Positions 727 through 18,464 of a stretch of DNA of 44,683 bases are shown in pieces. The notes beneath the pieces are model-generated. The model saw nothing but the letters and a program-made list of their open reading frames with translations, had not been told where the DNA came from and did not search any database. Origin of the DNA: Thermodesulfobacteriota bacterium (GTDB lineage: Bacteria > Desulfobacterota > Syntrophia > Syntrophales > JADFWA01); assembly GCA_034658835.1 (NCBI GenBank), contig JAYEGA010000058.1, positions 1-44,683 of the forward strand, written 5' to 3'. Each line of letters begins with the position of its first letter. Within the stretch, counting starts at the first letter, position 1. The translations under genes and the position numbers were made by a program.

Positions 727-2055
727 TTACTCTTCGTCCTCGTCTTCGTCCTCATCCTCATAGAAATCATCTACAGTTTCTGCGCCTTCAGGGACTTCCG
801 CTTCTATAGAACGCGTAATTCCCCTTACAAGAATTGCAAGAATAAGGAAGAGTAAAATAACTGAAATCACAATAATCATGGCGATTGTTGTTGTCCACGA
901 TTTTACTTCTTTCTCTACATTCTCGGAGTAAGCCCTGGCGAGTGTGTTAAACTTCTCTACATCTACTCCCATTCCTATCCACCCAAATCCACCAGGCTTT
1001 GGATAACTTTTGCTATAGAACTTAATAGGTGCATAAGCCACAAATTTTGTGTGACCTTTGAACTTATAGGTCTTGGTCCCGGAATTTCCCGCAGCCGCAT
1101 CATTTGAAATTTCCCGCATACCGCGATCCATGAAATCGAGAAGATTGAGATTTAATACCTCTTTTCCTTTTTCAGATAGCGTCTTTGCAGTTTTTTCGGT
1201 AAGCGGCGGGACAGGTGTGCCATTACTATAAAGACCAATTATATGGTAGTCACTCGGATGAGAAATAATAAATCCCCTGTTGTCCACCATATAGGCATAG
1301 TTACCGGTTGATGCATCTGCCTCTACAACGTATTCAGACTGAGTCGGCACAATATGATCAGTAAACTCAGCAAGATGCCTTACATCAAGAGCTAAAGTAA
1401 CTATTCCCGAAAATCCTTTCTGATCAAATAAAGGAGTGGCCATGCGGATTATACCTGTGAACCTCTTTCCCTTTTCAAAATCCGATCTGCTCACATACCA
1501 GCCGGTGACATGAGAAATATAAACTTTCCCTTTTTTGAGACTCCTGGCCTTGGCGAAATAGTCCTCAGATTTGTAAGTGGTATTTGCAGGATCACTCACA
1601 TTTTTCAGTTTTGATTTAGGTACTATCTCTCCATCAACAATCTTTATCAATTCGTCACCAGTTCTGTCAGTCAGAGACATCTCGGTGTAAAGAGGGGCCA
1701 GAATCTTACGGACCTTTTTATCTTTTTTTACCCAGATGTAACCCCCCTTCTTGCTTACAAACTCCTTATATGCAGAATCGGTTGTCGGAATGATCGTTGC
1801 AATCAAGAGATCATTCCTTCTCTCCCCGAGGAATTTGGCAACTTCTTCAGCCGTATTGATGGCACGTGTCCTGATTTCATTCTGGGATTTTTCGTCCAGG
1901 GCAGCAGTTGCCCGCTGCCTTGTTGTTTCCCCAACTTTGAAGATGCCGTTGGCTATAAGAAGAGCCATGAGTGATAAGGGGATCACGATAAGCAGGAAGA
2001 ATATCCTCCCTACAGTGAATAGCTGCTTCTCTTTTTTAGTTTCTGACATTATCAT
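727..2055 (-). CDS. Membrane protein with a large periplasmic double-Cache-like domain, no output domain and a poly-acidic C-terminal tail
   Basis: 442-aa ORF. It has an N-terminal TM segment (FFLLIVIPLSLMALLIANGIF), about 350 aa of extracytoplasmic Cache-like sequence (YISHVTGWYVS, YAYMVDNRGFIISHP, FVAYAPI) and a second TM (IAMIIVISVILLFLILAILV). The cytoplasmic tail is only about 35 aa and ends in YEDEDEDEDEE. The gene lies 43 nt downstream of atpE on the same strand. Confidence 0.65.
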   Translation of the reverse strand: MIMSETKKEKQLFTVGRIFFLLIVIPLSLMALLIANGIFKVGETTRQRATAALDEKSQNEIRTRAINTAEEVAKFLGERRNDLLIATIIPTTDSAYKEFVSKKGGYIWVKKDKKVRKILAPLYTEMSLTDRTGDELIKIVDGEIVPKSKLKNVSDPANTTYKSEDYFAKARSLKKGKVYISHVTGWYVSRSDFEKGKRFTGIIRMATPLFDQKGFSGIVTLALDVRHLAEFTDHIVPTQSEYVVEADASTGNYAYMVDNRGFIISHPSDYHIIGLYSNGTPVPPLTEKTAKTLSEKGKEVLNLNLLDFMDRGMREISNDAAAGNSGTKTYKFKGHTKFVAYAPIKFYSKSYPKPGGFGWIGMGVDVEKFNTLARAYSENVEKEVKSWTTTIAMIIVISVILLFLILAILVRGITRSIEAEVPEGAETVDDFYEDEDEDEDEE

Positions 2056-2097
2056 TCCCCCTAACTGTTGTTAGCTATTGAAGTTAATTACCTGATA

Positions 2098-2472
2098 CTA
2101 TCCAAGAAAATAGCTCATGTAGGGGTTTGCGAAGAGGAGAACAAGAGAAATAACGAGGGCATATATGGCGATTGATTCTGCCATGGCCATACCAACAAGC
2201 ATGGTCATCAATATCTTTCCCTGAACTCCGGGATTTCTTCCAACTGCCGTGCATGCTCCGTTTCCAATGTTGCCGATCCCTATACCCGCGCCGACAGCCC
2301 CCACGCCAATAGCAATACCTGCTGCAATCATTGCTCCGACTGACCAGATAACCTTTGTGTAAGATTCACTTGCAGGAAGCGCTTCTGCGGCAAAGGCCAC
2401 TGATGAAGATATTAGCAGGATAACCGTTGTTGTTAAGAGGGCTAATAACATTTTTCTGAGTTTCTGTGACAT
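2098..2472 (-). CDS. atpE: F-type ATP synthase subunit c with an N-terminal signal-peptide-like extension
   Basis: The GxGxGxG helix-1 motif (GAVGAGIGIGNIGNG), the RNPG loop and the helix-2 carboxylate motif MAMAESIAIYALVISLVLLFANP are present. The first ~30 aa look like a Sec signal (KK, a hydrophobic core, then AFA-AE). A strong SD (AAAGGAG) sits 9 nt upstream of the ATG. Confidence 0.85.
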   Translation of the reverse strand: MSQKLRKMLLALLTTTVILLISSSVAFAAEALPASESYTKVIWSVGAMIAAGIAIGVGAVGAGIGIGNIGNGACTAVGRNPGVQGKILMTMLVGMAMAESIAIYALVISLVLLFANPYMSYFLG

Positions 2473-2586
2473 TTCTCATTACTCCTTTCATTGTTCAATG
2501 TTTTTTTATTTTCCGCTTTTCCTTTTCTTATAGCACGAAATACGTTTCGTGGAAAGTGGAAATTTTTGAGAACCGAATGGGGGTTT

Positions 2587-2602
2587 TGCAACAGTTATGC
2601 CA
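2587..2602 (-). promoter_or_regulatory. Candidate sigma-54 (-24/-12) promoter directed at atpE
   Basis: The minus strand reads TGGCATAACTGTTGCA, against the consensus TGGCAC-N5-TTGCW. GG and GC have the canonical spacing. The site is about 116 nt upstream of the atpE ATG, and a 7-bp-stem hairpin (2534-2551) lies in the predicted leader. Confidence 0.6.
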
Positions 2603-2695
2603 CTTTATTCTGGATTGTGGTTTCTGCTTTAACATAGTATAAATGTTTATATAATTTGAATTTCGGGTCCCTGTGCTCAATATTCTTCCAGGGAG

Positions 2696-2753
2696 CGCAG
2701 TTTAACGTCTTGTTAAATTGCGTCCTGCGAATTTAACGAATTGTAAAATTGGC
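2696..2753. promoter_or_regulatory. Two tandem dyad-symmetric sites, candidate enhancer (UAS) for a sigma-54 activator
   Basis: Site 1 is CGCAGTTTAAC-N5-GTTAAATTGCG (2696-2722, 10/11 symmetric). Site 2 is GCGAATTTAAC-N5-GTAAAATTGGC (2727-2753, 9/11 symmetric). Their centres are about 31 bp apart, and about 110 and 140 bp upstream of the -24 element. Confidence 0.45.
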
Positions 2754-2774
2754 TCACATATCAGTATATTTTTA

Positions 2775-2803
2775 TTGAAATATTTTGACTGGAACGATAG
2801 TAT
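2775..2803 (+). promoter_or_regulatory. Possible sigma-70 promoter for the small-ORF/kinase operon
   Basis: TTGAAA (2775-2780), 17-nt spacer, TAGTAT (2798-2803). The match is weak to moderate. Confidence 0.3.
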
Positions 2804-2885
2804 GCAGGAGCCAGATGAGTTTATTCGTAAGAGAGTGGATAAAGGTTCTGGAACTTTTGATTCCATGTTGTGAGAGGGTAAAATA

Positions 2886-3062
2886 ATGATGCAGGAAGTA
2901 TTGACCGCTGTAACCTATCTGGTTGTTTGGCTTATCTGTGAAAAGGTTATTGGTATTGAGAGTGGATTGACCAAGCTTCTTATTTCGTTGGGTTCTGCTG
3001 TGGGTGTTTATATATTGATGGCTGTTAAAGAACATAAAGAGAAAGACCAAAGAAAGGAGTAA
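2886..3062 (+). CDS. Small (58 aa) predicted two-TM membrane protein, below the ORF-track cutoff
   Basis: My translation is MMQEVLTAVTYLVVWLICEKVIGIESGLTKLLISLGSAVGVYILMAVKEHKEKDQRKE. An SD-like GAGAGGG lies 7 nt upstream. The TAA stop abuts the TTG start of the kinase at 3063, and the kinase SD (AAGGAG) lies in the last codons of this ORF. Confidence 0.4.
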   Translation: MMQEVLTAVTYLVVWLICEKVIGIESGLTKLLISLGSAVGVYILMAVKEHKEKDQRKE

Positions 3063-5696
3063 TTGACTGTGCAGAAAACCCGGTCCAGCGATAAAAATAA
3101 GCGTTTTGAAATCAATTCAATGCTTTCCATCTGGCTGGCCACTCTAACTGTTGTTTTCTTGATTGTCCTGTTTGCTCTGGTCATCAACAGTGCAAGGGAA
3201 AAAGATATGGTGGAGCAGTATAGTAAACAGCAGCTTACTATTGCCAGGGGGACAGCCGCTGGAATAGAGGATCTCGTTGTTGGCGTTGAGAGGAGTATGA
3301 TAAATCTGTCCAGGCTTCCATGTGTTAAGGGAACTATGCCCGAAGCCACACTCCAGAGCTTGAAGGTAATATATAGTGATCTGGAAGGGAAGGTCAGTTT
3401 TATAGCCATAGAAGATAAGGATGGAGTAGCTATAGGTGCTTACCCGGCTTCTTTCCTGAAAGAAATGACGGGTGAGAGCTTTCAATTTTACCGCTATTTT
3501 CAGGAGGTAAAGAAAACAGGAAGACCGTATATAAGCGATCTGGTACTGGCGGGTGGAGAAAAAGGTAAGGACTTGGAAAGCAAATTTAAGTCTATTATTA
3601 TTGCTGTTCCCAGATATGATTCAGACAATGAGTTTTCCGGTGTGGTTTTTGCCGCCCTTTCTCTTTCCACCATAATCGATCGGTACATCAGGCCGGTCAA
3701 GTGTGAGGTATCGTGCTATTCCTGGATGGTGGATGATGGTGGTACAATACTTGTCCACCATGACGCGGAATTTATAGGAAAGAATATAGGGATACTCGAA
3801 GGCGCTAAATCTCAGGGATCAATACCCCTGAAAGATATTCTGCTGAAAGATGAAGGGGGATACGGTGAGTATTTGCTGCTTGCAGATGGTGGCAGGGTTG
3901 AAAAAAATGTTGTAGCCTATGCCCCGATTCATCTGGGTTCACGAAAAAGGGTGATCGCCATCAATTCTCCTTATGATATGGTGATTTCACTTTTGCGTAA
4001 GACTTTTCTCGATATCATGTCTGTAGCTGTCGGGTTGATTGTTGTCGTTATTATCGGAAGTATGTTTATGGTCCATTCGGGGAGAAAGCGACTGCGTCTC
4101 GAAGAAGAAGTGAAGCACCTGAAGGAGAGGAGTGTCTGGCAGGAAAAACTCGCCAGGGAGAAGAAGACCATTGAAGGAATCATAGAAGGATCTCCCATAC
4201 CGACATTTGTCATAAATAAAGAGCATGAGATCATCCTCTGGAGCAAGGCCTGTACTGAGCTGACCGGTTTTGACAGCAAGGAGATGATAGGCACAGACAG
4301 GCAGCATGTTCCATTCTATCCGGACAAGAGACCGGTTATAGCCGATCTGATTATTGATAATGATACTGAAGGATTGAAAAAGTATTATGGTGGTAAGATG
4401 GTACAGGAGTCGGTGGTAGTAAAGGGTGCTTATGAAGCGAGTGATTTCTTTAAGGACTTAGGTGGTAAAGATAGACACCTCTATTTTTTGGCGGCTCCGA
4501 TATATGATAAAAAAGGGGAGGTTATTGCAGCTATTGAAACCCTTCAGGATGTCTCCCATGAAAAGGAAATGGGACTCAAATTAAAGGAATATGCGGAGAC
4601 CCTCGAAAATGAACTGGATAAAAATGTCAGGCTAAAAGATGAGATGGAAGGACTTTACAATTATCTACAGTCTATATTGGATAGTTCCCCCGATCTGGTA
4701 TTTGTCTTCAACAGTGAGGGAGCTATCGATTATGTCAGCCGGGAAATGAGAGAAAAAAACGGATCTGCCTTTCAGCAGATCAAGGGTAAACATTTTACAG
4801 GATTTGTTGCCCCGGAACACAGGGATTCCATGCTTGAAAAATGGAAAGAGATAAAGAGAGGAATATTTAAACCTTTCGAGATTGAGGTAAAAAGAGAGGA
4901 TGGTTCGGCAAGAAATTTATTGTTAATCTCCGGCCCGATTAAGGGCACGGACCGGTATGTTGTTGTTCAACGTGATATTACGGAATTTAAAAACCTTGAG
5001 AAAAAATTCTATGAGAGCCAGAAGCTTGCTGCTGTGGGACAGTTGTCCGCCGGTATTGCACACGAAGTCAGAAACCCGCTTTCTTCTATAAAAATGAGCC
5101 TTCAAATTCTGGAAAAAAGGCTGAAACCTTCAGGAAATGATTTGAAGAGATTCAAGATTGCCGAGAAGGAGGTTGAGCACCTGGAGAAACTGGTAAGAGA
5201 TATCCTTATTTTTGCCAAGCCTGGAGAACCTAAAAAGGAACTTGATGATATCAATAAATTTCTTGGACGTTCTCTTGCAATGGCTGAAAAGGAAATATCG
5301 GACAAAAAGATAAATATCCAGTATATGTATGATAAAAATATTCCGCTTGTGAAATTTGATTCAGCCATGTTGGAGGAGGCATTTTTAAATATCTATCTCA
5401 ATGCTGTTGACGCAATGGAAGATCGGGGAAAGCTCTTAATATCGACGAAACTGCTTAAGAATAAGCATGATTCCATCGTTGTTAAGATTGAGGATAATGG
5501 TTGTGGTATTGATGAGGAGGACCTGCATCACATATTCAACCCATTTTTTACGAAGAAGAAGTATGGTACCGGTCTTGGGTTGACCCAGGTTAAGAAGATT
5601 GTTGACCTGCATCAGGGAACGGTGGAAGTCGTAAGTAAAAAGGGGAAAGGAACGACAGTTTGTATCACATTTCCTATTTTCAGTGAGGAAACGTGA
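3063..5696 (+). CDS. Sensor histidine kinase (TM, periplasmic Cache, TM, two PAS domains, HisKA, HATPase_c)
   Basis: H-box is AAVGQLSAGIAHEVRNPL. N-box is LNIYLNAVDAM. G-boxes are DNGCGI and GTGLGL. Two hydrophobic segments flank about 270 aa of Cache-like sequence. The TTG start sits 5 nt after AAGGAG; an alternative ATG is at 3120. Confidence 0.9.
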   Translation: MTVQKTRSSDKNKRFEINSMLSIWLATLTVVFLIVLFALVINSAREKDMVEQYSKQQLTIARGTAAGIEDLVVGVERSMINLSRLPCVKGTMPEATLQSLKVIYSDLEGKVSFIAIEDKDGVAIGAYPASFLKEMTGESFQFYRYFQEVKKTGRPYISDLVLAGGEKGKDLESKFKSIIIAVPRYDSDNEFSGVVFAALSLSTIIDRYIRPVKCEVSCYSWMVDDGGTILVHHDAEFIGKNIGILEGAKSQGSIPLKDILLKDEGGYGEYLLLADGGRVEKNVVAYAPIHLGSRKRVIAINSPYDMVISLLRKTFLDIMSVAVGLIVVVIIGSMFMVHSGRKRLRLEEEVKHLKERSVWQEKLAREKKTIEGIIEGSPIPTFVINKEHEIILWSKACTELTGFDSKEMIGTDRQHVPFYPDKRPVIADLIIDNDTEGLKKYYGGKMVQESVVVKGAYEASDFFKDLGGKDRHLYFLAAPIYDKKGEVIAAIETLQDVSHEKEMGLKLKEYAETLENELDKNVRLKDEMEGLYNYLQSILDSSPDLVFVFNSEGAIDYVSREMREKNGSAFQQIKGKHFTGFVAPEHRDSMLEKWKEIKRGIFKPFEIEVKREDGSARNLLLISGPIKGTDRYVVVQRDITEFKNLEKKFYESQKLAAVGQLSAGIAHEVRNPLSSIKMSLQILEKRLKPSGNDLKRFKIAEKEVEHLEKLVRDILIFAKPGEPKKELDDINKFLGRSLAMAEKEISDKKINIQYMYDKNIPLVKFDSAMLEEAFLNIYLNAVDAMEDRGKLLISTKLLKNKHDSIVVKIEDNGCGIDEEDLHHIFNPFFTKKKYGTGLGLTQVKKIVDLHQGTVEVVSKKGKGTTVCITFPIFSEET

Positions 5697-5739: not shown

Positions 5740-7119
5740 ATGTCGAAGATTCTTGTAGTGGATGATGACAGTTCTATATGTGAGACCCTCAAACTATATT
5801 TGACTGAAGAAGGGCATGAAGTACATACAGCACTGACCGGTACTGATGGGTTGAATAAGGTAGTTGAGGTTTCCCCTGATGTTGTAATTCTGGATATAAG
5901 ACTCCCGGATATTGACGGCTTTACCGTATTGGAAGATCTAAAAACGGATGATGAAGACACTAAAGTGATTATGATTACCGCTCATCATGATATGGATACG
6001 GCTATCAAGGCAATGAAGGAGGGGGCCTTTGATTACATTCACAAACCTATTGATGTTGATGAGCTGGACATAACCATTCAGAAGGCTTTAACAACCCTTG
6101 AAATGGAAAAGAAGATAAATGGTCTCCTCATGGAGCCTTCGAGGGATTTCAAGGTGGGGGACATTATTGGTGCAAGCAGTGCGATGAGCGAGATTTTTAA
6201 AATCATAGGAGTTGTTTCTCAGAGTAAAACAACAGTGCTTATTCAAGGAGAGAGCGGAACTGGTAAGGAACTGATTGCAAAGGTTATACATAGTAGCACG
6301 TCGAGCATTGAGCCTTATATAGCGATAAACTGCTCCGCCATTGTGGATACCCTCCTCGAATCTGAACTTTTTGGTCATGAGAAGGGCTCTTTTACCGGGG
6401 CAATAAGCAGAAAATTGGGTAAATTTGAGCTTGCCCGTTATGGTACGGTTTTTTTAGATGAGATCAGCGAGATGTCGATAAACCTTCAGGCCAAGCTCCT
6501 GAGAGTACTCCAGGAGATGGAGTTTGAGAGGGTTGGAGGTAAAGACAGGGTAAAGGTTAATGCAAGGATAATCACTGCCACCAACAAGGATCTCAAGAAA
6601 CTTGTGAGAGAAGGAAAATTCAGGGATGATCTTTATTATCGCCTGAATATTGTGTCAATAAACATCCCTCCACTGAGAGAGAGGGGAGAGGATATCCATC
6701 CACTTGTTAACTATCTCCTCAAAAAGATCAATCGTGAACTTCATAAGAGGATTGTTGGTGTATCTGATGAAATGATGGACGTCTTTATGAAATACAACTG
6801 GCCTGGAAATATCAGGGAGCTGGAGAATCTTCTGGTTAGAGCTACTGTTATAGCCAAGGGGCAGGTTCTCGGAAGAGGTGATTTCCCTGATCTGTTGGAA
6901 GACTTTTCCGAAGGAGAAATTCGGAGCGAAACGATAAACGAAGAAAGCGAAAAAGATGAGAATTTTGAGATCTGTACCATAGATGAAATAGAAAAGAAGC
7001 ATATAAGGAGAATAATCGAGAAAACCGGCAGGAATAAGGGTGAAATCTGCAAAATACTCGGTATCTCGCGGCCTACACTTGAGAGAAAATTAGAAAAGTA
7101 TGGTATAAAGTTTGAGTAA
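5740..7119 (+). CDS. Sigma-54-dependent response regulator (REC, AAA+ sigma-54 interaction domain, Fis-type HTH)
   Basis: The REC domain shows ILVVDDD and ILDIRLPDIDG. Walker A is GESGTGKE, and the GAFTGA-type loop is GSFTGA. ESELFGHEKG is present, and the C-terminal HTH is ICKILGISRPTLERKL. I prefer the ATG at 5740 (SD AGGAG upstream) over the track's GTG at 5683, which overlaps the kinase. Confidence 0.92.
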   Translation: MSKILVVDDDSSICETLKLYLTEEGHEVHTALTGTDGLNKVVEVSPDVVILDIRLPDIDGFTVLEDLKTDDEDTKVIMITAHHDMDTAIKAMKEGAFDYIHKPIDVDELDITIQKALTTLEMEKKINGLLMEPSRDFKVGDIIGASSAMSEIFKIIGVVSQSKTTVLIQGESGTGKELIAKVIHSSTSSIEPYIAINCSAIVDTLLESELFGHEKGSFTGAISRKLGKFELARYGTVFLDEISEMSINLQAKLLRVLQEMEFERVGGKDRVKVNARIITATNKDLKKLVREGKFRDDLYYRLNIVSINIPPLRERGEDIHPLVNYLLKKINRELHKRIVGVSDEMMDVFMKYNWPGNIRELENLLVRATVIAKGQVLGRGDFPDLLEDFSEGEIRSETINEESEKDENFEICTIDEIEKKHIRRIIEKTGRNKGEICKILGISRPTLERKLEKYGIKFE

Positions 7120-7125
7120 TAATGA

Positions 7126-7713
7126 ATGAAAATAACATCGGTAGACTTCATAAAGAGTGCCAGGGAACCCTCTCAGTATCCGAAGAGTTCACTTCCGGAG
7201 GTAGCCTTTGCCGGTAGATCCAACGTGGGAAAATCTTCGCTTATTAACACGCTTGTTAATCGAAAAAGGTTTGCCCGGACGAGCACCACTCCCGGAAGAA
7301 CACGGCTTATAAATTTTTTCATGATAAATAACCGTGTTTGTTTCGTCGACCTTCCCGGTTATGGATATGCCAGGGTACCCCTTTCTGTAAAGAGGGATTG
7401 GGGACCCATGGTGGAAAAATATCTTAGGGAACGGGAGAATCTGCGCCTTGTCATTTTAATCCTTGATGTAAGAAGGGATCCATCTGAGGGTGATCTTTCT
7501 CTTCTTGAATGGCTCCATTTTTATCGTATTAATGTCCTCGTTATTCTGACAAAAATCGACAAACTTTCCAGGAATCAAATAAAGATTCGACAGCAATGTA
7601 TAAAAAAGATCTTAGAATTATCTCTTGATAGTAACATAATTCTGTTTTCTGCCAGGACGGGCGAAGGAAAAGGGGCTATCTGGAAGGAGATAGAAAAAAG
7701 CAGTAAGCAGTAA
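7126..7713 (+). CDS. engB: Ribosome-biogenesis GTPase EngB/YsxC/YihA
   Basis: G1 is GRSNVGKSSLIN, G3 is DLPGYG and G4 is TKIDK. The length is typical at 195 aa. The gene starts 6 nt after the regulator stop. Confidence 0.9.
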   Translation: MKITSVDFIKSAREPSQYPKSSLPEVAFAGRSNVGKSSLINTLVNRKRFARTSTTPGRTRLINFFMINNRVCFVDLPGYGYARVPLSVKRDWGPMVEKYLRERENLRLVILILDVRRDPSEGDLSLLEWLHFYRINVLVILTKIDKLSRNQIKIRQQCIKKILELSLDSNIILFSARTGEGKGAIWKEIEKSSKQ

Positions 7714-7747: not shown

Positions 7748-10700
7748 GTGTGGAAGTTGTTAAAAGAGAGCGAAAAAATTGGTGCTGTGATGGTTGTGGG
7801 TTCGGGTATAGCAGGAATCCAGGCTTCCCTTGACCTTGCGAATTCCGGCATAAAGGTATACCTCGTTGAAGATAGCATCAGTATCGGTGGTGTTATGGCC
7901 CAGCTCGACAAGACATTTCCCACCAATGACTGTTCTACCTGTATTCTGTCTCCAAAGCTGGTTGAAGTCGGAAGACACCCGAATGTGGAAATCATGACGA
8001 GGAGGACGGTAGAATCCGTTGAGGGAGAACCCGGACTCTTTAAGGTAAAACTCAAGAAGGCGCCGAGATTCGTTGACATTGATAAATGTACCGGGTGTGG
8101 TGATTGCGCCAATGTTTGTCCTGTATCAGTCCCGTCGGATTTTGATGAGAACCTGGATAACAGGAAGGCTATATACAGGCATTTCCCCCAGGCCATCCCG
8201 AGTGCTTTTGCCATAGACAAACTGGGGACATCTCCATGTAAGGCGGCATGTCCGACCCATATCAGTGTGCAGGGCTATGTGGCCCTGATTGCCGAGGGGA
8301 AGTACAGGGAGGCCCTGGAGCTCATCAAGAGAGACAATCCCTTTCCAGCCGTTTGCGGCAGGGTTTGCCACCATCCCTGTGAGGCGGCCTGTAAGAGGGG
8401 TGAGGTTGAAGAGCCGATCGCCATTATGCATTTGAAGAGATTTGTGGCCGACCTTGATCTGGATGATGAGACAAAGTATGTCCCGGAGGTAAAGGAGAAG
8501 AAGGATAAGAAGGTTGCCATAATCGGTTCCGGTCCTGCCGGACTGAGTGCTGCCTATTATCTTGCCATTGAAGGTTATCAGATTACTGTATTTGAATCCC
8601 TTCCAGTTGCCGGCGGAATGCTGGCAGTGGGTATCCCGGAATACCGCCTCCCGAAAGATATCCTCAACGCAGAAATAAAGATTATTGAAGACCTTGGTGT
8701 TAAAATCAAGGTCAATGCAAAAGTGGGCAAAGATATCACGATGGGTGACCTTAAAGATGGATATGATGCCCTGTTTATTGGTGTAGGCTCCCATGTTAGC
8801 AGCAAGCTTGACGTTTCAGGAGAGGAACTTGAAGGGGTTATTCACGGGATAGACTTTTTGAGAAGGGTGAATCTGGGAGAAAAGGTTTTCCTGGGGGATA
8901 GGGTTGCGGTAATCGGCGGTGGAAATGTTGCGATGGATGCTGTTCGTACGGCGCTCAGAACCGGTTCCAGGGATGCTTTCGTGCTCTACAGGAGATCGCG
9001 TGCCGAGATGCCCGCCTTACCTGAAGAGATTGAAGGAGCAATAGAGGAAGGGATCAAGATCGAATATCTGGTAGCGCCGGTGAAGATACTTGGCACGGAT
9101 GGTAAAGTGACCGGCGTCGAATGTGTCCGTATGAAACTGGGTGAACCTGATGCAGGCGGCCGCAGACGTCCTGTTCCGATAGAGGGATCGGAATTTATAC
9201 TTGAAGCAGATGCGGTTCTTCCCGCGATAGGTCAGACAAGTGATCTGTCATTTATTGCAGAGGAAAGCGAAATTTCTATCAACAGGTGGAATACCTTTGA
9301 AGTTGATCCGGTGACCTTTGCTACCAGCGTGGAGGGTGTTTTTGCGGGTGGTGATGATGTTACGGGTCCCGCCACTGTGGTCGAGGCCATCAACGCCGGG
9401 AAAGAGGCGGCTATTTCTATAGACCGTTATTTTAAAAATGTGGATATTAAGGCGGGCAGGGAGAGAGATTGGACCAAAGGTATTGCTGATGAGGCTGACA
9501 CCAGCGGAATGAAGAAAATTGATCGATACAGACCATCCACCCTCGAACCAGAGAGGAGAATAACCGACTTTGATGAAGTTGTTAAAATTTTAAGTGAGGG
9601 TGATGCTGTCAGAGAGGCAAAAAGGTGTCTTGACTGCGGGATATGTTCTGAATGTTACCGGTGTGTTGATGCCTGTCTGGCTGATGCCATTGACCATGAA
9701 ATGAAGGCAGAGGAGGAAACCATCGAGGTTGGCGCTGTTATTGCTGCCCCTGGATTTGAAGTCTTTGATGCAAAGATTAAAGGAGAATATGGCTTTGGTG
9801 TCTACGACAATGTGGTGACAAGTATACAGTTTGAAAGGATATTATCCGCGTCCGGTCCCTATTTTGGTCACGTTAAAAGAATCTCTGATGGCAAAGAGCC
9901 TGAGAAGATAGCCTTTATTCAGTGTGTAGGTTCAAGAGATACATCCTGCGGGAATAGCTGGTGTTCTTCCGTATGCTGTATGTACGCAACAAAGGAGGCC
10001 ATTATCAGCAAAGAGCATGTCAGGGGGCTTGAACCTGCCATATTCTACATGGATATCCGTGCCTACGGAAAGGATTTTGACCGGTTTGTCGAAAGGGCCA
10101 GGGAGGAGTACGGTATAAGATATATCAGATCTATACCTTCAACAATTAAGGAGATGCAGCAGACAAAAAATCTTCTTATTACATATGTCCTGGAAGATGG
10201 AACGCTTACTGAAGAAGAGTTTGATATGGTGGTTCTTTCTGTCGGTCTAACCCCGCCAAAGGATGCACCGAAACTTGCAGAGACTCTGGGAATAGAGTTA
10301 GATGAACATGGTTTCTGCAGAACCTCTCTAATAAATCCTGTGCAGACCTCCCGTGACGGTGTTTTTGTTTGTGGCGTCTTTGGTGGTCCCAAGGACATCC
10401 CTGAGACTATTATGGAGGCGAGTGGTGCCGTGGCATGTGCGGAAGGTTTGCTGGCTTCCCGGCGGGGGACACTTATTACGGAGGAAGAAATTCCTTTAGA
10501 GATAGATTTGAGAGGTGTTGGTCCGAGGATAGGGGTTTTTGTATGCCGTTGCGGAATCAATATAGGCGGAGTGGTGGATGTGCCTGTAGTAGTTGAATAT
10601 ACTAGGACCCTTCCCAATGTGGTCTACGTTGAGGAGAACCTTTTTACCTGTTCTCAGGATACAGCGGTGAATATGGCTGAAGTAATCAAGAATCACAACC

Positions 10701-12187
10701 TTACCAGAGTTGTGGTGGCATCCTGTTCTCCCCGGACACATGAAAGTCTCTTTCAGGAGAATTGTGAAAAGGCGGGTCTGAACAGGCATCTCTTTGAGAT
10801 GGCTAATATCAGAGATCAGGATTCGTGGGTCCATATGAATGAACCTGAGGCGGCGACGGAGAAGGCGAAGGATCTGGTTCGTATGGCTGTGGCTAAGGCG
10901 GAGTATCTGAACCCTTTGAAGCCTGGGCAGCTCAGTGTAAATAAAACAACATTGATCATCGGAGGTGGACTTGCCGGGATAACGGCTGCCCTCTCTCTTG
11001 CTGATCAGGGTTTTGAATCCTATATCGTGGAGAAGGAAAACGAGCTGGGTGGAAATTATCGGAAGTTGTATTATACTCTGGAAGGCCTTGATACCAGGGA
11101 ACACCTAACTGCCCTGCTGGAGCGTGTTGAAAAGAGTGAATTGGTACATGTTTACGCCGGGGCAAAGATAAAGAATATCGAAGGATTTATAGGTAATTAC
11201 GAGACCACAATTGAAGCTGGAGGAGACGAGCACCGGTTTGAACATGGTGTGGTTATAGTGGCAACAGGGGCATGCGAACTTAAGACAGATGAATATCTCT
11301 ATGGTCAGAATGATAATGTGGTAACTCAGCGGGAGCTTGAAGAACTCATTTATGAAAAGGGCGCAAAGGTTGTCAGAGCAAAAAGCGTAGTCATGATACA
11401 GTGTGTCGGCTCAAGGAATGCCGAGAGACCGTACTGCAGCAGATATTGTTGCAGTGAGGCCATAAAAAATGCCCTGAAGTTAAAAGAGACTGATCCGGAC
11501 AAGGATGTCACTGTACTCTACAGGGATATCAGGACATACGGACTTAAGGAAGAGTATTATAAAAAGGCCCGTGAGGCCAATGTCAAGTTCATCTGCTATG
11601 ATGAAGAGAGGAAGCCTGAAGTAAAGAGCGTTGGCTCTAAAGTTTATGTAACGGTTTTTGATCCGATATTGAATGAATCGGTGGAACTAGAAGCGGATAT
11701 GCTGGTGTTGAGTGTTGGCACGGTTGCCAATCCTGACAATGATGCCATTGGCAAAGCGCTGAAGGTGTCGATAAATCAGGATGGTTTCTTCCTTGAGGCC
11801 CATGTAAAGTTAAGGCCTGTTGATTTTGCAACGGATGGTATTTTCCTGTGCGGGATGGCCCATTCTCCGAAGATGAGTGATGAGACCATCACTCAGGCTA
11901 ATGCTGCCGTATCCAGGGCATGTACTATTCTGACCAAAGACTTTATAGAATCCGAAGGGAAGATTGCCTGTGTAATCAAGGAAAGATGTATGGCCTGCGG
12001 GCTTTGTGAGGTAAACTGTCCCTTTGGCGCTATAGAGGTGGATGAGAAAGAGGGTTATGCTGTGGTGAACACAGTTCTCTGTAAGGGATGTGGTGTGTGT
12101 ACTGCCTCGTGCAGGATGAATGCAGTTGATTTGGAAGGATTTAATAATGAGGAAATTCTGGCACAGATAGCAGCATTGACAGGTTAG
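7748..12187 (+). CDS. Giant HdrA-like flavo-iron-sulfur fusion protein: an HdrA module with an inserted GltD/NfnB-type NAD(P)H module, followed by a second complete HdrA module (HdrL-like)
   Basis: aa 14-70 show the HdrA FAD motifs VVGSGIAGIQASLDLA and FPTNDCSTCIL. CTGCGDCANVCP is at aa 114-125. aa ~160-560 resemble the glutamate-synthase small subunit (CKAACP...NPFPAVCGRVCHHPCEAACKRG, IIGSGPAGLSAA, VIGGGNVAMDA, VFAGGDD). CLDCGICSECYRCVDAC is at aa 627-643. CVGSRD...CSSVCCMYATKEA follows. The second module starts near aa 925 with IGVFVCRCGINIGG, IIGGGLAGITAA and CVGSRN...CSRYCCSEAIKNA. The C-terminus carries CMACGLCEVNCP and CKGCGVCTASC. The frame is continuous, with no internal stop. Confidence 0.85.
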   Translation: MWKLLKESEKIGAVMVVGSGIAGIQASLDLANSGIKVYLVEDSISIGGVMAQLDKTFPTNDCSTCILSPKLVEVGRHPNVEIMTRRTVESVEGEPGLFKVKLKKAPRFVDIDKCTGCGDCANVCPVSVPSDFDENLDNRKAIYRHFPQAIPSAFAIDKLGTSPCKAACPTHISVQGYVALIAEGKYREALELIKRDNPFPAVCGRVCHHPCEAACKRGEVEEPIAIMHLKRFVADLDLDDETKYVPEVKEKKDKKVAIIGSGPAGLSAAYYLAIEGYQITVFESLPVAGGMLAVGIPEYRLPKDILNAEIKIIEDLGVKIKVNAKVGKDITMGDLKDGYDALFIGVGSHVSSKLDVSGEELEGVIHGIDFLRRVNLGEKVFLGDRVAVIGGGNVAMDAVRTALRTGSRDAFVLYRRSRAEMPALPEEIEGAIEEGIKIEYLVAPVKILGTDGKVTGVECVRMKLGEPDAGGRRRPVPIEGSEFILEADAVLPAIGQTSDLSFIAEESEISINRWNTFEVDPVTFATSVEGVFAGGDDVTGPATVVEAINAGKEAAISIDRYFKNVDIKAGRERDWTKGIADEADTSGMKKIDRYRPSTLEPERRITDFDEVVKILSEGDAVREAKRCLDCGICSECYRCVDACLADAIDHEMKAEEETIEVGAVIAAPGFEVFDAKIKGEYGFGVYDNVVTSIQFERILSASGPYFGHVKRISDGKEPEKIAFIQCVGSRDTSCGNSWCSSVCCMYATKEAIISKEHVRGLEPAIFYMDIRAYGKDFDRFVERAREEYGIRYIRSIPSTIKEMQQTKNLLITYVLEDGTLTEEEFDMVVLSVGLTPPKDAPKLAETLGIELDEHGFCRTSLINPVQTSRDGVFVCGVFGGPKDIPETIMEASGAVACAEGLLASRRGTLITEEEIPLEIDLRGVGPRIGVFVCRCGINIGGVVDVPVVVEYTRTLPNVVYVEENLFTCSQDTAVNMAEVIKNHNLTRVVVASCSPRTHESLFQENCEKAGLNRHLFEMANIRDQDSWVHMNEPEAATEKAKDLVRMAVAKAEYLNPLKPGQLSVNKTTLIIGGGLAGITAALSLADQGFESYIVEKENELGGNYRKLYYTLEGLDTREHLTALLERVEKSELVHVYAGAKIKNIEGFIGNYETTIEAGGDEHRFEHGVVIVATGACELKTDEYLYGQNDNVVTQRELEELIYEKGAKVVRAKSVVMIQCVGSRNAERPYCSRYCCSEAIKNALKLKETDPDKDVTVLYRDIRTYGLKEEYYKKAREANVKFICYDEERKPEVKSVGSKVYVTVFDPILNESVELEADMLVLSVGTVANPDNDAIGKALKVSINQDGFFLEAHVKLRPVDFATDGIFLCGMAHSPKMSDETITQANAAVSRACTILTKDFIESEGKIACVIKERCMACGLCEVNCPFGAIEVDEKEGYAVVNTVLCKGCGVCTASCRMNAVDLEGFNNEEILAQIAALTG

Positions 12188-12201
12188 AAAGCTTTGAAAA
12201 T

Positions 12202-12639
12202 ATGGCTGAAAATAGACTAAATAAAGGTTGGGAGCCAAAGATTGTTGCTTTTTGTTGTAACTGGTGTACCTATGCCGGGGCTGACCTGGCAGGTATAAGC
12301 CGGATACAGTATCCACCGAATGTGAGAATAATAAGGGTTCCATGTACGGGCAGGATAGATCCCTTTTATATTGTCAAGGCTCTTCAGGAAGGAGCGGATG
12401 GTGTGCTTGTATCCGGTTGTCACCCCGGGGAGTGCCACTATCTGACAGGGAATTTATCTGCCAGGAGAAAATTTGCCATGTTGAAGAATTTCCTTTCATA
12501 CCTTGGGATAGAACCTGACAGGACTGTATTTACATGGGTTTCTGCGTCTGAGGGGGAGAAATTTGCCCGGGTTGTCAAAGGTGTGACGGATGCTGTTAAG
12601 ACGCTTGGTCCGGCGAATAAACTGGTAAAAAGAATATAA
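12202..12639 (+). CDS. mvhD: MvhD/FlxD-type (methyl-viologen-reducing hydrogenase delta subunit-like) protein
   Basis: IVAFCCNWCTYAGADLAG...RVPCTGR...LVSGCHPGECHY is the characteristic MvhD cysteine pattern. The gene starts 14 nt after the HdrL-like stop. Confidence 0.85.
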   Translation: MAENRLNKGWEPKIVAFCCNWCTYAGADLAGISRIQYPPNVRIIRVPCTGRIDPFYIVKALQEGADGVLVSGCHPGECHYLTGNLSARRKFAMLKNFLSYLGIEPDRTVFTWVSASEGEKFARVVKGVTDAVKTLGPANKLVKRI

Positions 12640-12651
12640 TAACAGTTTACA

Positions 12652-12686
12652 GTGGTTAGTGGTCAGTGGTCAGTGGTTAGTGGTCA
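12652..12686. repeat. Heptanucleotide tandem repeat (GTGGTYA)x5
   Basis: The sequence reads GTGGTTA GTGGTCA GTGGTCA GTGGTTA GTGGTCA. It lies between the mvhD stop (12639) and the first plausible start of the next gene. Confidence 0.9.
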
Positions 12687-13717: not shown

Positions 13718-13736
13718 AAAAGTTGATGGAGTAAAT

Positions 13737-14261
13737 ATGGAAACATTTCTGGAAGAAGTCAACAGTAGAATAGACGGTGTGCCCATACAGAGATGTTATC
13801 ACTGCCGGAAGTGCACGGCAGGGTGTCCTGTAGCCTTTGCAATGGATTACAATCCAAATACGATCATAAAAATGATTCAGATGGGTAGAAGAGATGAGGT
13901 ACTCAACAGTTCTACTATATGGCTATGTGCTTCCTGCGAAACCTGTGTTACGCGCTGTCCTAATGAGGTTGATATAGCCAGGATGATGGATGTCTTAAGA
14001 GAGATGGCTATAGAATCAGAGGTAAGGATTAAGGAAAAGAATATACTGAAATTTCATGAGGCTTTCCTTTCAAATGTGAAGATGGGTGGGCGTATAAATG
14101 AACCTCTTATGATTGTTAATTATAAGTTAAAATCGGGTGATTACTTTTCTGATATGGCGTTGGGTATAAGTATGTTTATTAAAGGCAAGCTTTTCCTCCT
14201 TTCCCCGAGAACAAAAGACATGAAATCAGTAAAAAAGATATTTGAGGAAACGAAAAGATAA
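13737..14261 (+). CDS. hdrC: Heterodisulfide reductase subunit C-like protein
   Basis: The spacing of CYHCRKCTAGCP and CASCETCVTRCP is typical of HdrC. The ATG at 13737 is preceded by GATGGAG. The track's upstream extension overlaps the previous gene. Confidence 0.8.
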   Translation: METFLEEVNSRIDGVPIQRCYHCRKCTAGCPVAFAMDYNPNTIIKMIQMGRRDEVLNSSTIWLCASCETCVTRCPNEVDIARMMDVLREMAIESEVRIKEKNILKFHEAFLSNVKMGGRINEPLMIVNYKLKSGDYFSDMALGISMFIKGKLFLLSPRTKDMKSVKKIFEETKR

Positions 14262-14287
14262 CTGAAAGTGTATCAAGGAGAATATAG

Positions 14288-15139: not shown

Positions 15140-15199
15140 TATGGGACAGTTTTGGATGGTTATGCAAAGATTTAAGTATAAGTGGTGAGAAGGAAAGGT

Positions 15200-16225: not shown

Positions 16226-16240
16226 ATTGTGGAGATAGTA

Positions 16241-17164: not shown

Positions 17165-17821
17165 TTAGTGTGCTTCCTCCATCGCCCCTGCTATATACAT
17201 CATCGACAGCAGTACGAAGACCAGTGTCTGGATTACCGCCACAAGAAATTCAAGCGCAAGAACCGGCAATGGTACAATCAGGGGAACCAGCACAAACAAC
17301 ACACCCAGCATAATGTGTCCACCCTCCATATTTCCGAATAGTCGCACCGAAAGAGACAGAGGACGGGACAGATGACTTATTACCTCAATCGGAAACATAA
17401 GTGGCGTTAGCCACCAGACAGGTCCCAGGAATTGTTTAATGTACTTAAATCCGTGAATCTTGACGCCAATGATATGTGTCGTAACGAAAACGACCAGCGC
17501 CATGGAAACGGTAGTATTGAGATTGCTGGTGGGTCCCTCAAATCCCGGAATCTTCCCTACTATATTTGAGGTCAAAATGAAAAGGGCCAAAGTTGCCATA
17601 AGGGGGAAGAACTTTCTCCCTTCAGGTCCCATGGTATCGACAAGTAAATTGTCTATACCGCCTATGATCACTTCCATAAAATTCTGAAATCTGCCTGGAT
17701 AGATATCCATACGGCGCGTTGCCAGAAAGGAAAACAGGAGCAGGAGTACCATAATGAACCAGGTATAAGTTACATGTGGTGGAAAAAAGTTATTCTCAAA
17801 AAATAAAAAAGAATGCTGCAT
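17165..17821 (-). CDS. atpB: F-type ATP synthase subunit a
   Basis: The conserved region [15 protein letters not shown] contains the essential Arg. The protein has a multi-TM profile and a typical length of 218 aa. Confidence 0.9.
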
Positions 17822-17824
17822 CGC

Positions 17825-18220
17825 TTATTTGACCTCCTCAGCGTAGTTTTTTTTTGAAAGCTCAATAACTGTTGTAAATATAATGCTTATTACAACTATG
17901 GAAAGTCCGACTATCAAACCAATCACATCGACAGATGTTTGTGTAATGACAAGAAAAAGCACAATTGCCGTGACGGCTAATCTGATATAGTATTTGAATA
18001 CTACAACTGACGTCGTACTATCTGTAACCCTCTCAAATGCCTTTCGAAGGTTCTGGTAAAGCCAGTAAAAATTTATGATGCTTACAAGGCCGCCCAACAG
18101 TATCCCGAGAGTAAACCTGTGTGACATAAAGATTAAGCTGACTGTGAGAAAAATCCCGAGGATAATCCAGTTTCTCACCTTAAGCTTTCTGGGGATCTGG
18201 TCTTCTTCTGTGCGGTTCAT
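17825..18220 (-). CDS. atpI: ATP synthase protein I-like small membrane protein
   Basis: This 131-aa four-TM protein lies directly upstream of atpB. The listed ATG overlaps the upstream gene by 41 nt; a GTG start at 18178 is an alternative. Confidence 0.6.
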   Translation of the reverse strand: MNRTEEDQIPRKLKVRNWIILGIFLTVSLIFMSHRFTLGILLGGLVSIINFYWLYQNLRKAFERVTDSTTSVVVFKYYIRLAVTAIVLFLVITQTSVDVIGLIVGLSIVVISIIFTTVIELSKKNYAEEVK

Positions 18221-18464
18221 ATTTTAAACGCTTTATTATAGGCTTTTCATCTCTGAAGTTCTTTTTGATCACATAATATACATTCCTGAATCCCGCAGTA
18301 GTCCCTATGAGAAAAAACAGCAGTGCAAGTTTATGTCCTGTCCCAAGTTTCCGATCCAGGTATGCTCCAACAAGGAGACCTCCAGCACTCATGATGACCA
18401 TCGCAAAACCGAGGCTGCTGACATGAGCCATCTGGATCATGGATGTTTTCATTTCTTTATCCAT
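18180..18464 (-). CDS. AtpZ/AtpR-type small membrane protein ('F0F1-ATPase gene 1' family)
   Basis: There are two TM helices, with the motifs LGFAMVIMSAGGLLVGAYLDRKLGT and LLFFLIGTTAGFRNVY. The position upstream of atpI-atpB fits. The start is uncertain; I use the ATG at 18464, whereas the track's start at 18506 overlaps the fcl stop. Confidence 0.6.
   Translation of the reverse strand: MDKEMKTSMIQMAHVSSLGFAMVIMSAGGLLVGAYLDRKLGTGHKLALLFFLIGTTAGFRNVYYVIKKNFRDEKPIIKRLKYEPHRRRPDPQKA

What the first reader, a model, noticed from the sequence alone, without database searches (positions are those of the whole stretch)
2534..2753. Sigma-54 promoter with two phased dyad sites, aimed at atpE and facing the operon that encodes the only sigma-54 activator in the window
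The minus strand at 2602->2587 reads TGGCATAACTGTTGCA. This matches the -24/-12 consensus TGGCAC-N5-TTGCW, with the invariant GG and GC at the canonical spacing. It lies about 116 nt upstream of the atpE ATG. About 110 and 140 bp further upstream are two imperfect dyads. Their cores are AGTTTAAC-N5-GTTAAATT (2699-2719) and AATTTAAC-N5-GTAAAATT (2730-2750). Their centres are about 31 bp apart, roughly three helical turns. An AT-rich tract (about 2630-2665) between them and the promoter could bend DNA. This is the textbook enhancer-binding-protein architecture. The NtrC-type activator (5740-7119) and its Cache-PAS kinase are transcribed divergently from the same intergenic region. Sigma-54/two-component control of an ATP-synthase c subunit plus an orphan dCache protein would, to my knowledge, be unusual. 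A 7-bp-stem hairpin (2534-2551) sits in the predicted leader.
Basis: partly seen in the sequence, partly recalled or inferred. Interest (0 to 1): 0.72.

Follow-up and report, generated by a model that had tools for sequence, protein, structure and literature searches.

The report
Sigma-54 promoter driving ATP-synthase c-subunit paralogue
A sigma-54 promoter with two upstream activator-binding sites, conserved across an order of syntrophic bacteria (Syntrophales), controls an ATP-synthase c-subunit gene and a sensor-like membrane protein, probably through the two-component system encoded next door.

Summary

- **Promoter.** TGGCATAACTGTTGCA (2602->2587, minus strand) is the only exact -24/-12 match in the window (0.08 expected). 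The same element lies 91-145 nt upstream of the orthologous gene in 71 of 72 assessable Syntrophales loci. GG and GC never vary, while the spacer does.
- **Activator sites.** Two 17-bp dyads (2701-2717 and 2732-2748; family consensus TTGAAC-N5-GTTCAA) sit 30-31 bp apart. They keep a nearly fixed distance from the promoter in about 63 of 71 loci.
- **Other conserved parts.** An A/T-rich, IHF-like element lies between the dyads and the promoter. The leader forms a hairpin. A sigma-70 promoter serves the divergent kinase/regulator operon.
- **Regulator.** The adjacent NtrC-type regulator has a GSFTGA motif and a near-invariant DNA-binding helix.
- **New context.** atpZ-atpI-atpB lies in the same window with no c gene after atpB. 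This c gene (c1) is a paralogue. Some relatives also carry a second c gene (c2), and in one genome examined c2 has a sigma-70-type promoter.

The regulatory device is textbook and the target is unusual: a new member of a known kind, of moderate interest.

The parts
2587..2602 (-). Sigma-54 promoter, -24/-12 element TGGCATAACTGTTGCA (GG at 2601/2600, GC at 2589/2588)
   Evidence: Sequence. It is the only exact match in the window, with 0.08 expected. It is present in 71 of 72 orthologous regions. G12, G13, A15, T23, G24 and C25 are invariant in alignment A2.
2576..2576 (-). Predicted transcription start (+1), plus or minus 2 nt. The leader would be about 104 nt.
   Evidence: Inferred from the canonical position of the -12 C (2588). 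Not mapped.
2701..2717 (.). Promoter-proximal activator dyad (atpE sense: TTTAACAAGACGTTAAA), centre 2709, about -133 from the predicted start
   Evidence: Scores 10 of 12 against TTGAAC-N5-GTTCAA. An orthologous site is centred at -105 to -111 from TGGCA in about 63 of 71 loci.
2732..2748 (.). Promoter-distal activator dyad (atpE sense: TTTTACAATTCGTTAAA), centre 2740, about -164 from the predicted start
   Evidence: Scores 9 of 12. An orthologous site is centred at -135 to -142, which is 30-31 bp from the proximal site.
2629..2665 (-). A/T-rich tract ending in the conserved TTxCxx-N4-TTA element (TGTTAA at 2634->2629). Candidate IHF or DNA-bending site, about -53 to -90 from the predicted start.
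   Evidence: It forms a conserved block in the upstream alignment. The best IHF-consensus score averages 7.1 of 9 against 6.6 in shuffles, and 30% against 8.5% score at least 8. The best sites cluster at one position. The window itself matches only about 6 of 9.
2512..2566 (-). Leader stem-loop. The basal stem pairs a pyrimidine tract with a purine tract. The apical hairpin is 2534-2551 and carries the conserved UGUGYUA.
   Evidence: - Covariance model R1 hits 30 loci, all at the homologous position, in 1 Mb.
- 75.7% of cells pair, against 52-62% with slid partners, and 11 of 17 pairs show double changes.
- Mean MFE z is -1.85 in sense and -0.85 in antisense.
- RNAalifold and Rfam gave nothing.
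2482..2489 (-). Shine-Dalgarno sequence GAAAGGAG
   Evidence: Near-invariant in alignment A2.
2098..2472 (-). F-type ATP-synthase c-subunit paralogue 'c1' (124 aa) with a signal-peptide-like N-terminal extension
   Evidence: - PF00137, E = 7e-18.
- TIGR01260 scores 44.8 against a cut-off of 43.95.
- The closest solved c-rings are from A. woodii and Spirulina.
- The RNP loop and the TM2 Glu are present.
727..2055 (-). Co-transcribed membrane protein (442 aa) with a periplasmic dCache_1 domain, no output domain and an acidic C-terminal tail
   Evidence: PF02743. It is 59-87% identical across 80 loci and always lies 40-70 nt after c1. The acidic tail is conserved.
2775..2803 (+). Sigma-70-type promoter of the divergent operon (-35 TTGAAA at 2775-2780, -10 TAGTAT at 2798-2803)
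   Evidence: Consensus scan. TTGAAA-N16-18-TAnnnT is found upstream of the small gene in 53 of 62 loci.
2886..3062 (+). Conserved 58-aa membrane protein, first gene of the regulator operon
   Evidence: Found by tblastn in about 64 loci at 53-91% identity. No family match.
3063..5696 (+). Sensor histidine kinase (dCache_1, two PAS domains, HisKA, HATPase_c)
   Evidence: Pfam. The PAS-kinase core is conserved. The length of the N-terminal sensor region varies, giving ORFs of 520-1170 aa across loci.
5740..7119 (+). NtrC-family response regulator (REC, sigma-54 AAA+ domain with GSFTGA, HTH_8)
   Evidence: - Pfam.
- GSFTGA is at 6385 and this is the only such protein in the window.
- The HTH NKGEICEILGISRPT[LF]ERKLEKYGI is near-invariant across loci.
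- It scores below the AtoC and NtrC equivalog cut-offs.
17165..18464 (-). Context: atpZ-like (18180-18464), atpI (17825-18220) and atpB (17165-17821), followed by a hairpin and no c gene
   Evidence: PF00119 and PF03899. Sequence and ORFs. No c gene follows atpB in 48 long related loci.

Best explanation
The intergenic region 2473-2885 is a bidirectional control region.

**Leftward (minus strand).** It holds a sigma-54-dependent promoter at 2602-2587. This promoter transcribes a two-gene operon: an F-type ATP-synthase c-subunit paralogue (c1, 2098-2472) and a dCache membrane protein (727-2055).

**How activation most likely works.**

1. The promoter is silent until the NtrC-family response regulator (5740-7119) is phosphorylated by its dCache-PAS histidine kinase (3063-5696).
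2. The phosphorylated regulator binds as dimers to two 17-bp dyads (2701-2717 and 2732-2748), about three helical turns apart, and forms an oligomer.
3. A bend at the conserved A/T-rich, IHF-like element (2629-2665) brings the oligomer to the sigma-54 holoenzyme.
4. ATP hydrolysis then opens the promoter, with a start near 2576.
5. The transcript carries a leader of about 104 nt with a stem-loop and a strong ribosome-binding site.

**Rightward (plus strand).** A sigma-70-type promoter (2775-2803) expresses the small protein, the kinase and the regulator.

**Shown here:** the sequence elements, their conservation and geometry, the protein domains, and the gene linkage.

**Inferred:** DNA binding by this particular regulator, bending by IHF, the transcription start, and the activating signal.
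For: - **Promoter.** It is the only exact match in the window, with 0.08 expected. A -24/-12 element is present in 71 of 72 assessable orthologous regions at -91 to -145. GG and GC are invariant and the spacer varies in an alignment whose mean column identity is 47%.
- **Dyads.** 6-N5-6 sites are centred at -139 and -109 (each within about 3 bp) from TGGCA, 30-31 bp apart, in about 63 of 71 loci. The window holds only this one pair.
- **Regulator.** It has REC, AAA+ with GSFTGA, and HTH_8. The order EngB<-RR<-HK<-small | c1->dCache is conserved in 58 loci where the regulator lies within the fetched DNA. The recognition helix is near-invariant.
- **Bending element.** It is conserved and modestly enriched for the IHF consensus at one position.
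- **No rival promoter.** No sigma-70-like site lies on the minus strand between the dyads and the ATG. The conserved TGTGYTA in the leader never has T at the -7 position.
- **Paralogue contrast.** Contig FWPV01000504.1 carries both c1 and c2. There c1 has the sigma-54 promoter and the dyads, and no -24/-12 element was found in the 320 nt upstream of c2 in any of 14 loci, including this contig. In a different genome (L162/L163), c2 has TTGACA-N18-TAAAAT and no GG-N10-GC.
Against: - Nothing here is experimental. There is no mapped start, no binding data, and rpoN was not seen in the window or in the fetched loci.
- In at least five loci (L014, L019, L048, L058, L077) the promoter and dyads persist although no regulator lies within 7.5 kb upstream. 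Adjacency is therefore not obligatory.
- Smithellaceae-like loci have GTGCA or ATGCA at -12 and a single dyad at about -196, although the HTH is the same.
- The IHF-like element matches the E. coli consensus only about 6 of 9 in the window.
- A sigma-54 promoter as the sole promoter would be odd if c1 were the cell's only c subunit.
Confidence: 0.72

Rival explanations
1. The promoter is a real sigma-54 promoter, but the dyads are bound by a different activator or regulator encoded elsewhere. The neighbouring two-component system would then control something else.
For: Five or more loci keep the promoter and dyads without an adjacent regulator. No binding data exist.
Against: The regulator operon is adjacent and divergent in 58 loci. 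The 6-N5-6 geometry fits Fis-type HTH dimers of NtrC-family regulators. The regulator's recognition helix is near-invariant, in parallel with the conserved half-sites. It is the only sigma-54 activator in 44.7 kb.
Confidence: 0.12
2. The c1 operon is mainly transcribed from another, unrecognised promoter. The sigma-54 promoter only adds a conditional boost.
For: A c subunit is normally needed constitutively. The window lacks the c2 paralogue. Simple consensus scans miss atypical promoters.
Against: No sigma-70-like site lies on the minus strand upstream of the ATG. The only conserved blocks in the region are the sigma-54 element, the dyads, the A/T element and the leader. The TGTGYTA block lacks the -7 T in every lineage.
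Confidence: 0.12
3. The dyads mainly serve autoregulation of the divergent sigma-70 promoter of the kinase/regulator operon rather than activation of c1.
For: The distal dyad edge (2748) is 27 bp from the -35 hexamer (2775) in the window.
Against: The distance from the dyads to the sigma-54 promoter is fixed within about 3 bp across the order. The distance to the sigma-70 promoter varies by more than 100 bp. This function could coexist with activation.
Confidence: 0.05
4. The -24/-12 match and the dyads are chance similarities in an A/T-rich intergenic region.
For: With one mismatch allowed, the pattern occurs as often as in shuffles: 3 observed against 3.02 expected.
Against: The exact match is expected 0.08 times. 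The elements are conserved in position and sequence in 71 of 72 loci, amid otherwise 47% column identity.
Confidence: 0.02

Closest known systems
NtrC-activated glnAp2 promoter of enteric bacteria (from my own knowledge of the literature)
   Same: - A sigma-54 -24/-12 promoter.
- Two strong 17-bp 6-N5-6 dyads about three helical turns apart, more than 100 bp upstream.
- An activator of REC, AAA+ and Fis-type HTH architecture, phosphorylated by a partner kinase.
   Different: - The half-sites are TTGAAC/GTTCAA rather than TGCACC/GGTGCA.
- The sites lie about 25 bp further upstream (about -133 and -164 here, against -108 and -140).
- A conserved A/T-rich element lies between the sites and the promoter.
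- The target is a c-subunit/dCache operon, not nitrogen assimilation.
- The regulator scores below the NtrC equivalog cut-off, 425.6 against 558.6.
IHF-assisted sigma-54 promoters such as Pu (XylR) of the TOL plasmid and nifH (NifA) (from my own knowledge)
   Same: Tandem upstream activator sites at about -120 to -175, a bend site centred near -60, and a -24/-12 promoter.
   Different: The activator here is a phosphorylation-controlled response regulator, not a ligand- or redox-controlled one. The bend element matches the IHF consensus only partly.
AtoS/AtoC two-component system (best NCBIfam matches)
   Same: The domain order of the kinase core and the regulator. AtoC is the best-scoring equivalog model at 476.5 bits and AtoS at 262.3 bits.
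   Different: Both are far below the curated cut-offs of 714 and 646. The target genes differ. From my own knowledge, the AtoC binding site is an unrelated 20-bp repeat.
Multiple c-subunit isoforms of one F-type ATP synthase, for example Acetobacterium woodii c1 and c2/c3 (PDB 4bem)
   Same: More than one c-subunit gene occurs per genome in some Syntrophales. A. woodii c subunits are the closest solved structures.
   Different: Here the isoform genes are unlinked from each other and from atpB. One of them is under sigma-54 and two-component control and is co-transcribed with a dCache protein. Whether both enter one ring is unknown.

Membership tests
Sigma-54 (-24/-12) promoter | GG and GC doublets exactly 10 nt apart within TGGCAC-N5-TTGCW | tested here: met
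   TGGCATAACTGTTGCA. It fits the degenerate pattern TGGCAY-N5-TTGCW exactly.
Sigma-54 (-24/-12) promoter | Correct orientation and distance upstream of a gene, conserved in orthologous regions | tested here: met
   Found in 71 of 72 loci at -91 to -145 from the start codon, with GG and GC invariant.
Sigma-54 (-24/-12) promoter | rpoN present in the genome | not testable with these tools
   No RpoN box was found in the window or in 163 fetched loci. These cover only small parts of the genomes. The presence of rpoN is inferred from the GSFTGA-bearing activator.
Sigma-54 (-24/-12) promoter | Transcription start about 12 nt downstream of the GC, dependent on sigma-54 | not testable with these tools
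   This needs 5'-RACE, dRNA-seq or in vitro transcription.
Bacterial enhancer (UAS) of an NtrC-family activator | Two or more inverted-repeat sites of 6-N5-6 type, phased by whole helical turns, 80-200 bp upstream of the promoter | tested here: met
   The centres are 31 bp apart, at about -133 and -164. The geometry is conserved within about 3 bp in about 63 of 71 loci.
Bacterial enhancer (UAS) of an NtrC-family activator | A cognate activator with an AAA+ GAFTGA-type loop and a C-terminal HTH | tested here: met
   PF00158, PF02954 and GSFTGA are present. The protein is adjacent in 58 loci.
Bacterial enhancer (UAS) of an NtrC-family activator | Demonstrated binding of the activator to the sites | not testable with these tools
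   Only co-conservation of the HTH and the half-sites is available.
IHF binding site | WATCAANNNNTTR preceded by an A/T tract, between the UAS and the promoter | tested here: inconclusive
   The position and the A/T tract fit. The consensus match is about 6 of 9 in the window. The family mean is 7.1 against 6.6 in shuffles.
F-type ATP synthase subunit c | Two-helix hairpin with a glycine-rich TM1, an R-N/Q-P loop and a TM2 carboxylate | tested here: met
   PF00137, E = 7e-18. TIGR01260 is just above its cut-off. GRNP and AMAES are aligned to solved c-rings.
F-type ATP synthase subunit c | Gene located within the atp operon next to atpB | tested here: not met
   atpB (17165-17821) is 15 kb away and ends its own operon. 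The same holds in 48 related loci. This is typical gene context rather than a strict family criterion.
Known cis-regulatory RNA family (Rfam) | Match of the leader to a curated covariance model | tested here: not met
   No Rfam match at E <= 1 in 2000-3200.
AtoC / NtrC / ZraR equivalogs | Score above the curated NCBIfam cut-off | tested here: not met
   AtoC scores 476.5 against 714, NtrC 425.6 against 558.6, and ZraR 376.8 against 760.

The most novel reading that the evidence does not exclude
Syntrophales may own two Fo c-subunit isoforms. One would be a housekeeping c2, which in one genome examined has a sigma-70-type promoter. The other is the c1 described here, made only when a dedicated sensor kinase and sigma-54 activator fire, together with a dCache membrane protein.

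The cell could then remodel, or newly equip, its ATP-synthase c-ring in response to an external signal. That could change the ion-to-ATP ratio or the ion specificity. The dCache partner might act as an assembly factor or as a feedback sensor. This would be a regulated gear change in organisms that live at the thermodynamic limit.

In lineages like the window's, where c2 is not found nearby, c1 could even be the only c subunit. The whole F-ATPase would then be signal-dependent.
Probability: 0.18. Interest if true: 0.8.

Novelty: new member of a known kind. Interest (0 to 1): 0.5.

Why it matters
ATP-synthase genes are usually treated as housekeeping genes. I found no report of a c-subunit gene under sigma-54 or two-component control in the searchable literature.

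Here the arrangement is conserved across an order of syntrophic bacteria. Their energy budget depends on running the ATP synthase and reverse electron transport close to equilibrium.

If the prediction holds, it gives three things:

- a defined promoter, binding motif and regulator with which to study how syntrophs adjust their membrane energetics;
- a handle (the kinase and the dCache protein) on the signal they respond to;
- a reason to ask whether c-ring composition is regulated.

As a regulatory device, however, it is an ordinary NtrC-type enhancer and promoter.

Tried and rejected
1. **Consensus leader structure.** RNAalifold on MAFFT alignments of the leader found no consensus structure, because hairpin registers shift between lineages. 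A hand-given structure, a covariance model and a realignment were needed. That support is moderate, and the realignment leans towards the model.
2. **Rfam.** No match in the region.
3. **Leader block as a sigma-70 promoter.** I tried reading the conserved leader block TGTGYTA as an extended -10 sigma-70 promoter. I rejected this because the -7 position is a purine in every lineage.
4. **IHF.** The match to the E. coli consensus is only partial, so I keep it as a candidate.
5. **Chimera test.** Leader halves from the same sequence fold better than chimeras, -4.9 against -3.4 kcal/mol. The median rank was only 0.28, so the evidence is weak.
6. **Is c1 the only c subunit?** I tried to decide this. 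I found atpZ-atpI-atpB without a c gene and a c2 paralogue in 14 of 48 related loci. I could not scan the window's own genome.
7. **rpoN.** Not found in the fetched DNA, which is uninformative.
8. **Literature.** Searches for sigma-54 or RpoN with atpE, c subunit, Syntrophus or Smithella gave no precedent. The Pelobacter genome paper was irrelevant.

Full report
**What is in the window.** Genes and domains are as follows.

| Coordinates | Strand | Product |
|---|---|---|
| 727-2055 | - | 442-aa membrane protein with a dCache_1 domain and no output domain |
| 2098-2472 | - | 124-aa ATP-synt_C protein with a signal-peptide-like N-terminus |
| 2473-2885 | | 413-bp intergenic region |
| 2886-3062 | + | 58-aa membrane protein |
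| 3063-5696 | + | histidine kinase: dCache_1, two PAS domains, HisKA, HATPase_c |
| 5740-7119 | + | response regulator: REC, sigma-54 AAA+, HTH_8 |
| 7126-7713 | + | EngB GTPase |

The regulator carries GSFTGA. It is the only sigma-54 activator in the 44.7 kb. No RpoN box occurs in the window.

**Check of the observation.**
- The -24/-12 element TGGCATAACTGTTGCA runs 2602->2587 on the minus strand.
- The dyads are at 2701-2717 and 2732-2748, with centres 31 bp apart.
- The A/T-rich tract is at 2630-2665.
- The 7-bp hairpin is at 2534-2551.

The exact pattern TGGCAY-N5-TTGCW occurs once, against 0.08 expected. With one mismatch allowed it is not enriched, so the exact match and its context carry the argument. 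The dyad pair is the only such pair in the window.

**Comparative evidence for the promoter.**
- A profile of the dCache protein retrieved 80 loci from species-representative genomes. All are Syntrophales or 'Deltaproteobacteria' MAGs, 59-87% identical.
- The order EngB<-RR<-HK<-small | c-subunit->dCache is conserved in 58 loci where the regulator lies within the fetched DNA.
- A -24/-12 element lies 91-145 nt upstream of the c-subunit start in 71 of 72 assessable loci. The remaining locus has a run of N there.
- In the alignment from promoter to ATG, G12, G13, A15, T23, G24 and C25 are invariant. The 5-nt spacer and the flanks vary, and mean column identity is 47%. That is the signature of selection on the element itself.
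- A small Smithellaceae-like group has GTGCA or ATGCA at -12.

**The upstream sites.**
- With sequences anchored on TGGCA, two 17-bp sites resembling TTGAAC-N5-GTTCAA are found. Their centres are at -135 to -142 and -105 to -111, 30-31 bp apart, in about 63 of 71 loci.
- Family consensus for the distal site is TTyyAC-yTTTC-GTTCAA. For the proximal site it is TTGAAT-GAAAy-GTTmAA.
- Relative to the predicted start at about 2576, the window's sites are centred at about -133 and -164.
- The Smithellaceae-like loci instead have one TTTAAC-AAAAC-TTTAAA site at about -196.
- The regulator's HTH (NKGEICEILGISRPT[LF]ERKLEKYGI) is near-invariant in all loci that encode it next door. This parallels the conserved half-sites.
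- At least five loci keep the promoter and dyads but have unrelated genes upstream. The regulator can therefore act from elsewhere in the genome, or a different protein binds there.

**Other conserved parts.**
- Between the dyads and the promoter lies an A/T tract ending in TTxCxx-N4-TTA (window 2629-2665). This is where IHF sites sit in Pu-type and nifH-type promoters. The match to WATCAANNNNTTR is partial, 7.1 against 6.6 of 9, and the best sites cluster at one position.
- Upstream of the small gene, TTGAAA-N17-TAGTAT (2775-2803) is conserved in 53 of 62 loci. It is a sigma-70-type promoter for the regulator operon.

**The leader.** The leader contains a conserved pyrimidine tract, the block UGUGYUA, a purine tract and an invariant GAAAGGAG.
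- RNAalifold and Rfam see nothing.
- Sense-strand folding is more stable than shuffles: z is -1.85, against -0.85 for antisense.
- A covariance model finds 30 homologous leaders and nothing else in 1 Mb.
- On the model-fitted alignment 75.7% of cells pair, against 52-62% with slid partners, and 11 of 17 pairs show double changes.
- I rate the structure as moderately supported. Its function (mRNA stability or control of translation) is unknown.
- It is not a terminator, because no U-run follows it. It is not a sigma-70 -10 element, because no T is ever found at -7.

**What the target gene is.**
- The core of the 124-aa protein is a normal F-type c subunit. It has a GxGxG helix, a GRNP loop and AMAES in helix 2.
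- The window also holds atpZ-like (18180-18464), atpI (17825-18220) and atpB (17165-17821) on the minus strand. A hairpin follows atpB and no c gene does.
- In five loci, atpZ-atpI-atpB lies directly beside the regulator gene, convergent with it.
- In 48 long metagenome loci encoding AtpB relatives, none has a c gene after atpB.
- Fourteen of those loci carry a second c gene, c2. It has GRNPEAQGK and is 48-59% identical to the window's protein. It lies 4-9 kb from atpI and appears monocistronic in the three loci whose gene context was examined (L125, L162, L163).
- One contig, FWPV01000504.1, carries both genes. There c1 has the sigma-54 promoter and both dyads. No -24/-12 element was found in the 320 nt upstream of c2 in any of the 14 loci, including this contig.
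- In a 3.48-Mb genome, c2 is preceded by TTGACA-N18-TAAAAT and has no GG-N10-GC.
- The window has no c2, although the flanking epimerase genes are syntenic with that genome.
- So c1 is a distinct paralogue. It is always linked to the dCache gene and to the sigma-54 promoter. Whether the window's organism has c2 elsewhere could not be tested.

**Mechanism and comparison.**
- The most likely mechanism is the classical one: kinase, then phospho-regulator, then oligomer on two phased dyads, then a loop over a bend, then opening of the sigma-54 closed complex.
- It works like NtrC at glnAp2 and like IHF-assisted promoters such as Pu.
- The regulator and the kinase are not equivalogs of AtoSC, NtrBC or ZraSR, since all scores are below the cut-offs.
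- The half-site sequence, the target operon and the conserved leader are specific to this system.
- I found no precedent for sigma-54 control of a c-subunit gene.

**Verdict.** It is a new member of a known regulatory kind with an unusual target. The interest lies in the target. A signal-controlled c-subunit isoform with a dCache partner, in bacteria that live on minimal energy, suggests regulated remodelling of the ATP synthase. That remains speculation.

Noticed in passing
window 17165-18464 (-): atpZ-like, atpI and atpB form an operon that ends in a strong hairpin (about 17100-17150). No c-subunit gene follows. The hairpin contains a pseudo -24 match, TGGCATGTAAAAGGCA at 17124.
   Followed up: yes
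L125 3789-4244 (-); L162/L163 10001-10369; L023 3762-4139: A second c-subunit paralogue, c2, exists in Syntrophales. It also has a signal-peptide-like N-terminus. It is monocistronic in the loci whose context was examined and has a sigma-70-type promoter in one genome (L162/L163). It sits 4-9 kb from atpZ-atpI-atpB in 14 of 48 loci and is absent from the syntenic place in the window.
   Followed up: partly
window 3063-5696 and the kinase ORFs of L001-L080, L161: The PAS-HisKA-HATPase core of the kinase is conserved. The N-terminal sensor region varies, giving ORFs of 520-1170 aa. The kinase of L161 (519 aa) has no dCache domain, whereas the operon's separate dCache protein is highly conserved. 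The orphan dCache protein might serve as a co-sensor.
   Followed up: partly
window 727-2055 (-), C-terminus: The dCache protein ends in a conserved, strongly acidic tail (YEDEDEDEDEE) after its second transmembrane helix. It is only 26% identical to the kinase's own dCache domain.
   Followed up: no
window 7748-17080 (+): A large HdrA-like flavoprotein (1479 aa), MvhD/FlpD, several Fe-S proteins, a CCG-domain protein and an FNR-like reductase lie here. This heterodisulfide-reductase-like electron-transfer cluster sits between the regulator operon and atpB.
   Followed up: no
window 20670-36911: A nearly complete methylmalonyl-CoA pathway set lies here: two carboxyltransferases, succinate dehydrogenase/fumarate reductase, fumarase, malic enzyme, epimerase, succinyl-CoA synthetase, B12-dependent mutase and MeaB. 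It suggests a syntrophic propionate oxidiser.
   Followed up: no
window 39168-40465 (-): An AbiEii-family nucleotidyltransferase toxin gene overlaps an upstream 203-aa ORF with no family match. The ORF may be its antitoxin.
   Followed up: no
L012, L028, L076, L078, L079: Smithellaceae-like loci have GTGCA or ATGCA at -12 and a single TTTAACAAAACTTTAAA site at about -196, instead of two dyads at -109 and -139. The regulator's HTH is unchanged.
   Followed up: partly
L014 1319-3543; L053 4400-7300: In L014, V-type ATPase I and K subunit genes lie upstream of the c1 locus. In L053, a 3.3-kb insertion with a 755-aa ORF separates the regulator operon from the dyads and the promoter, which remain intact.
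   Followed up: no
window 2508-2530 (-) and orthologous leaders: The purine-rich 3' strand of the leader stem carries repeated GGA motifs close to the GAAAGGAG ribosome-binding site. This pattern is reminiscent of CsrA-type binding sites.
   Followed up: no
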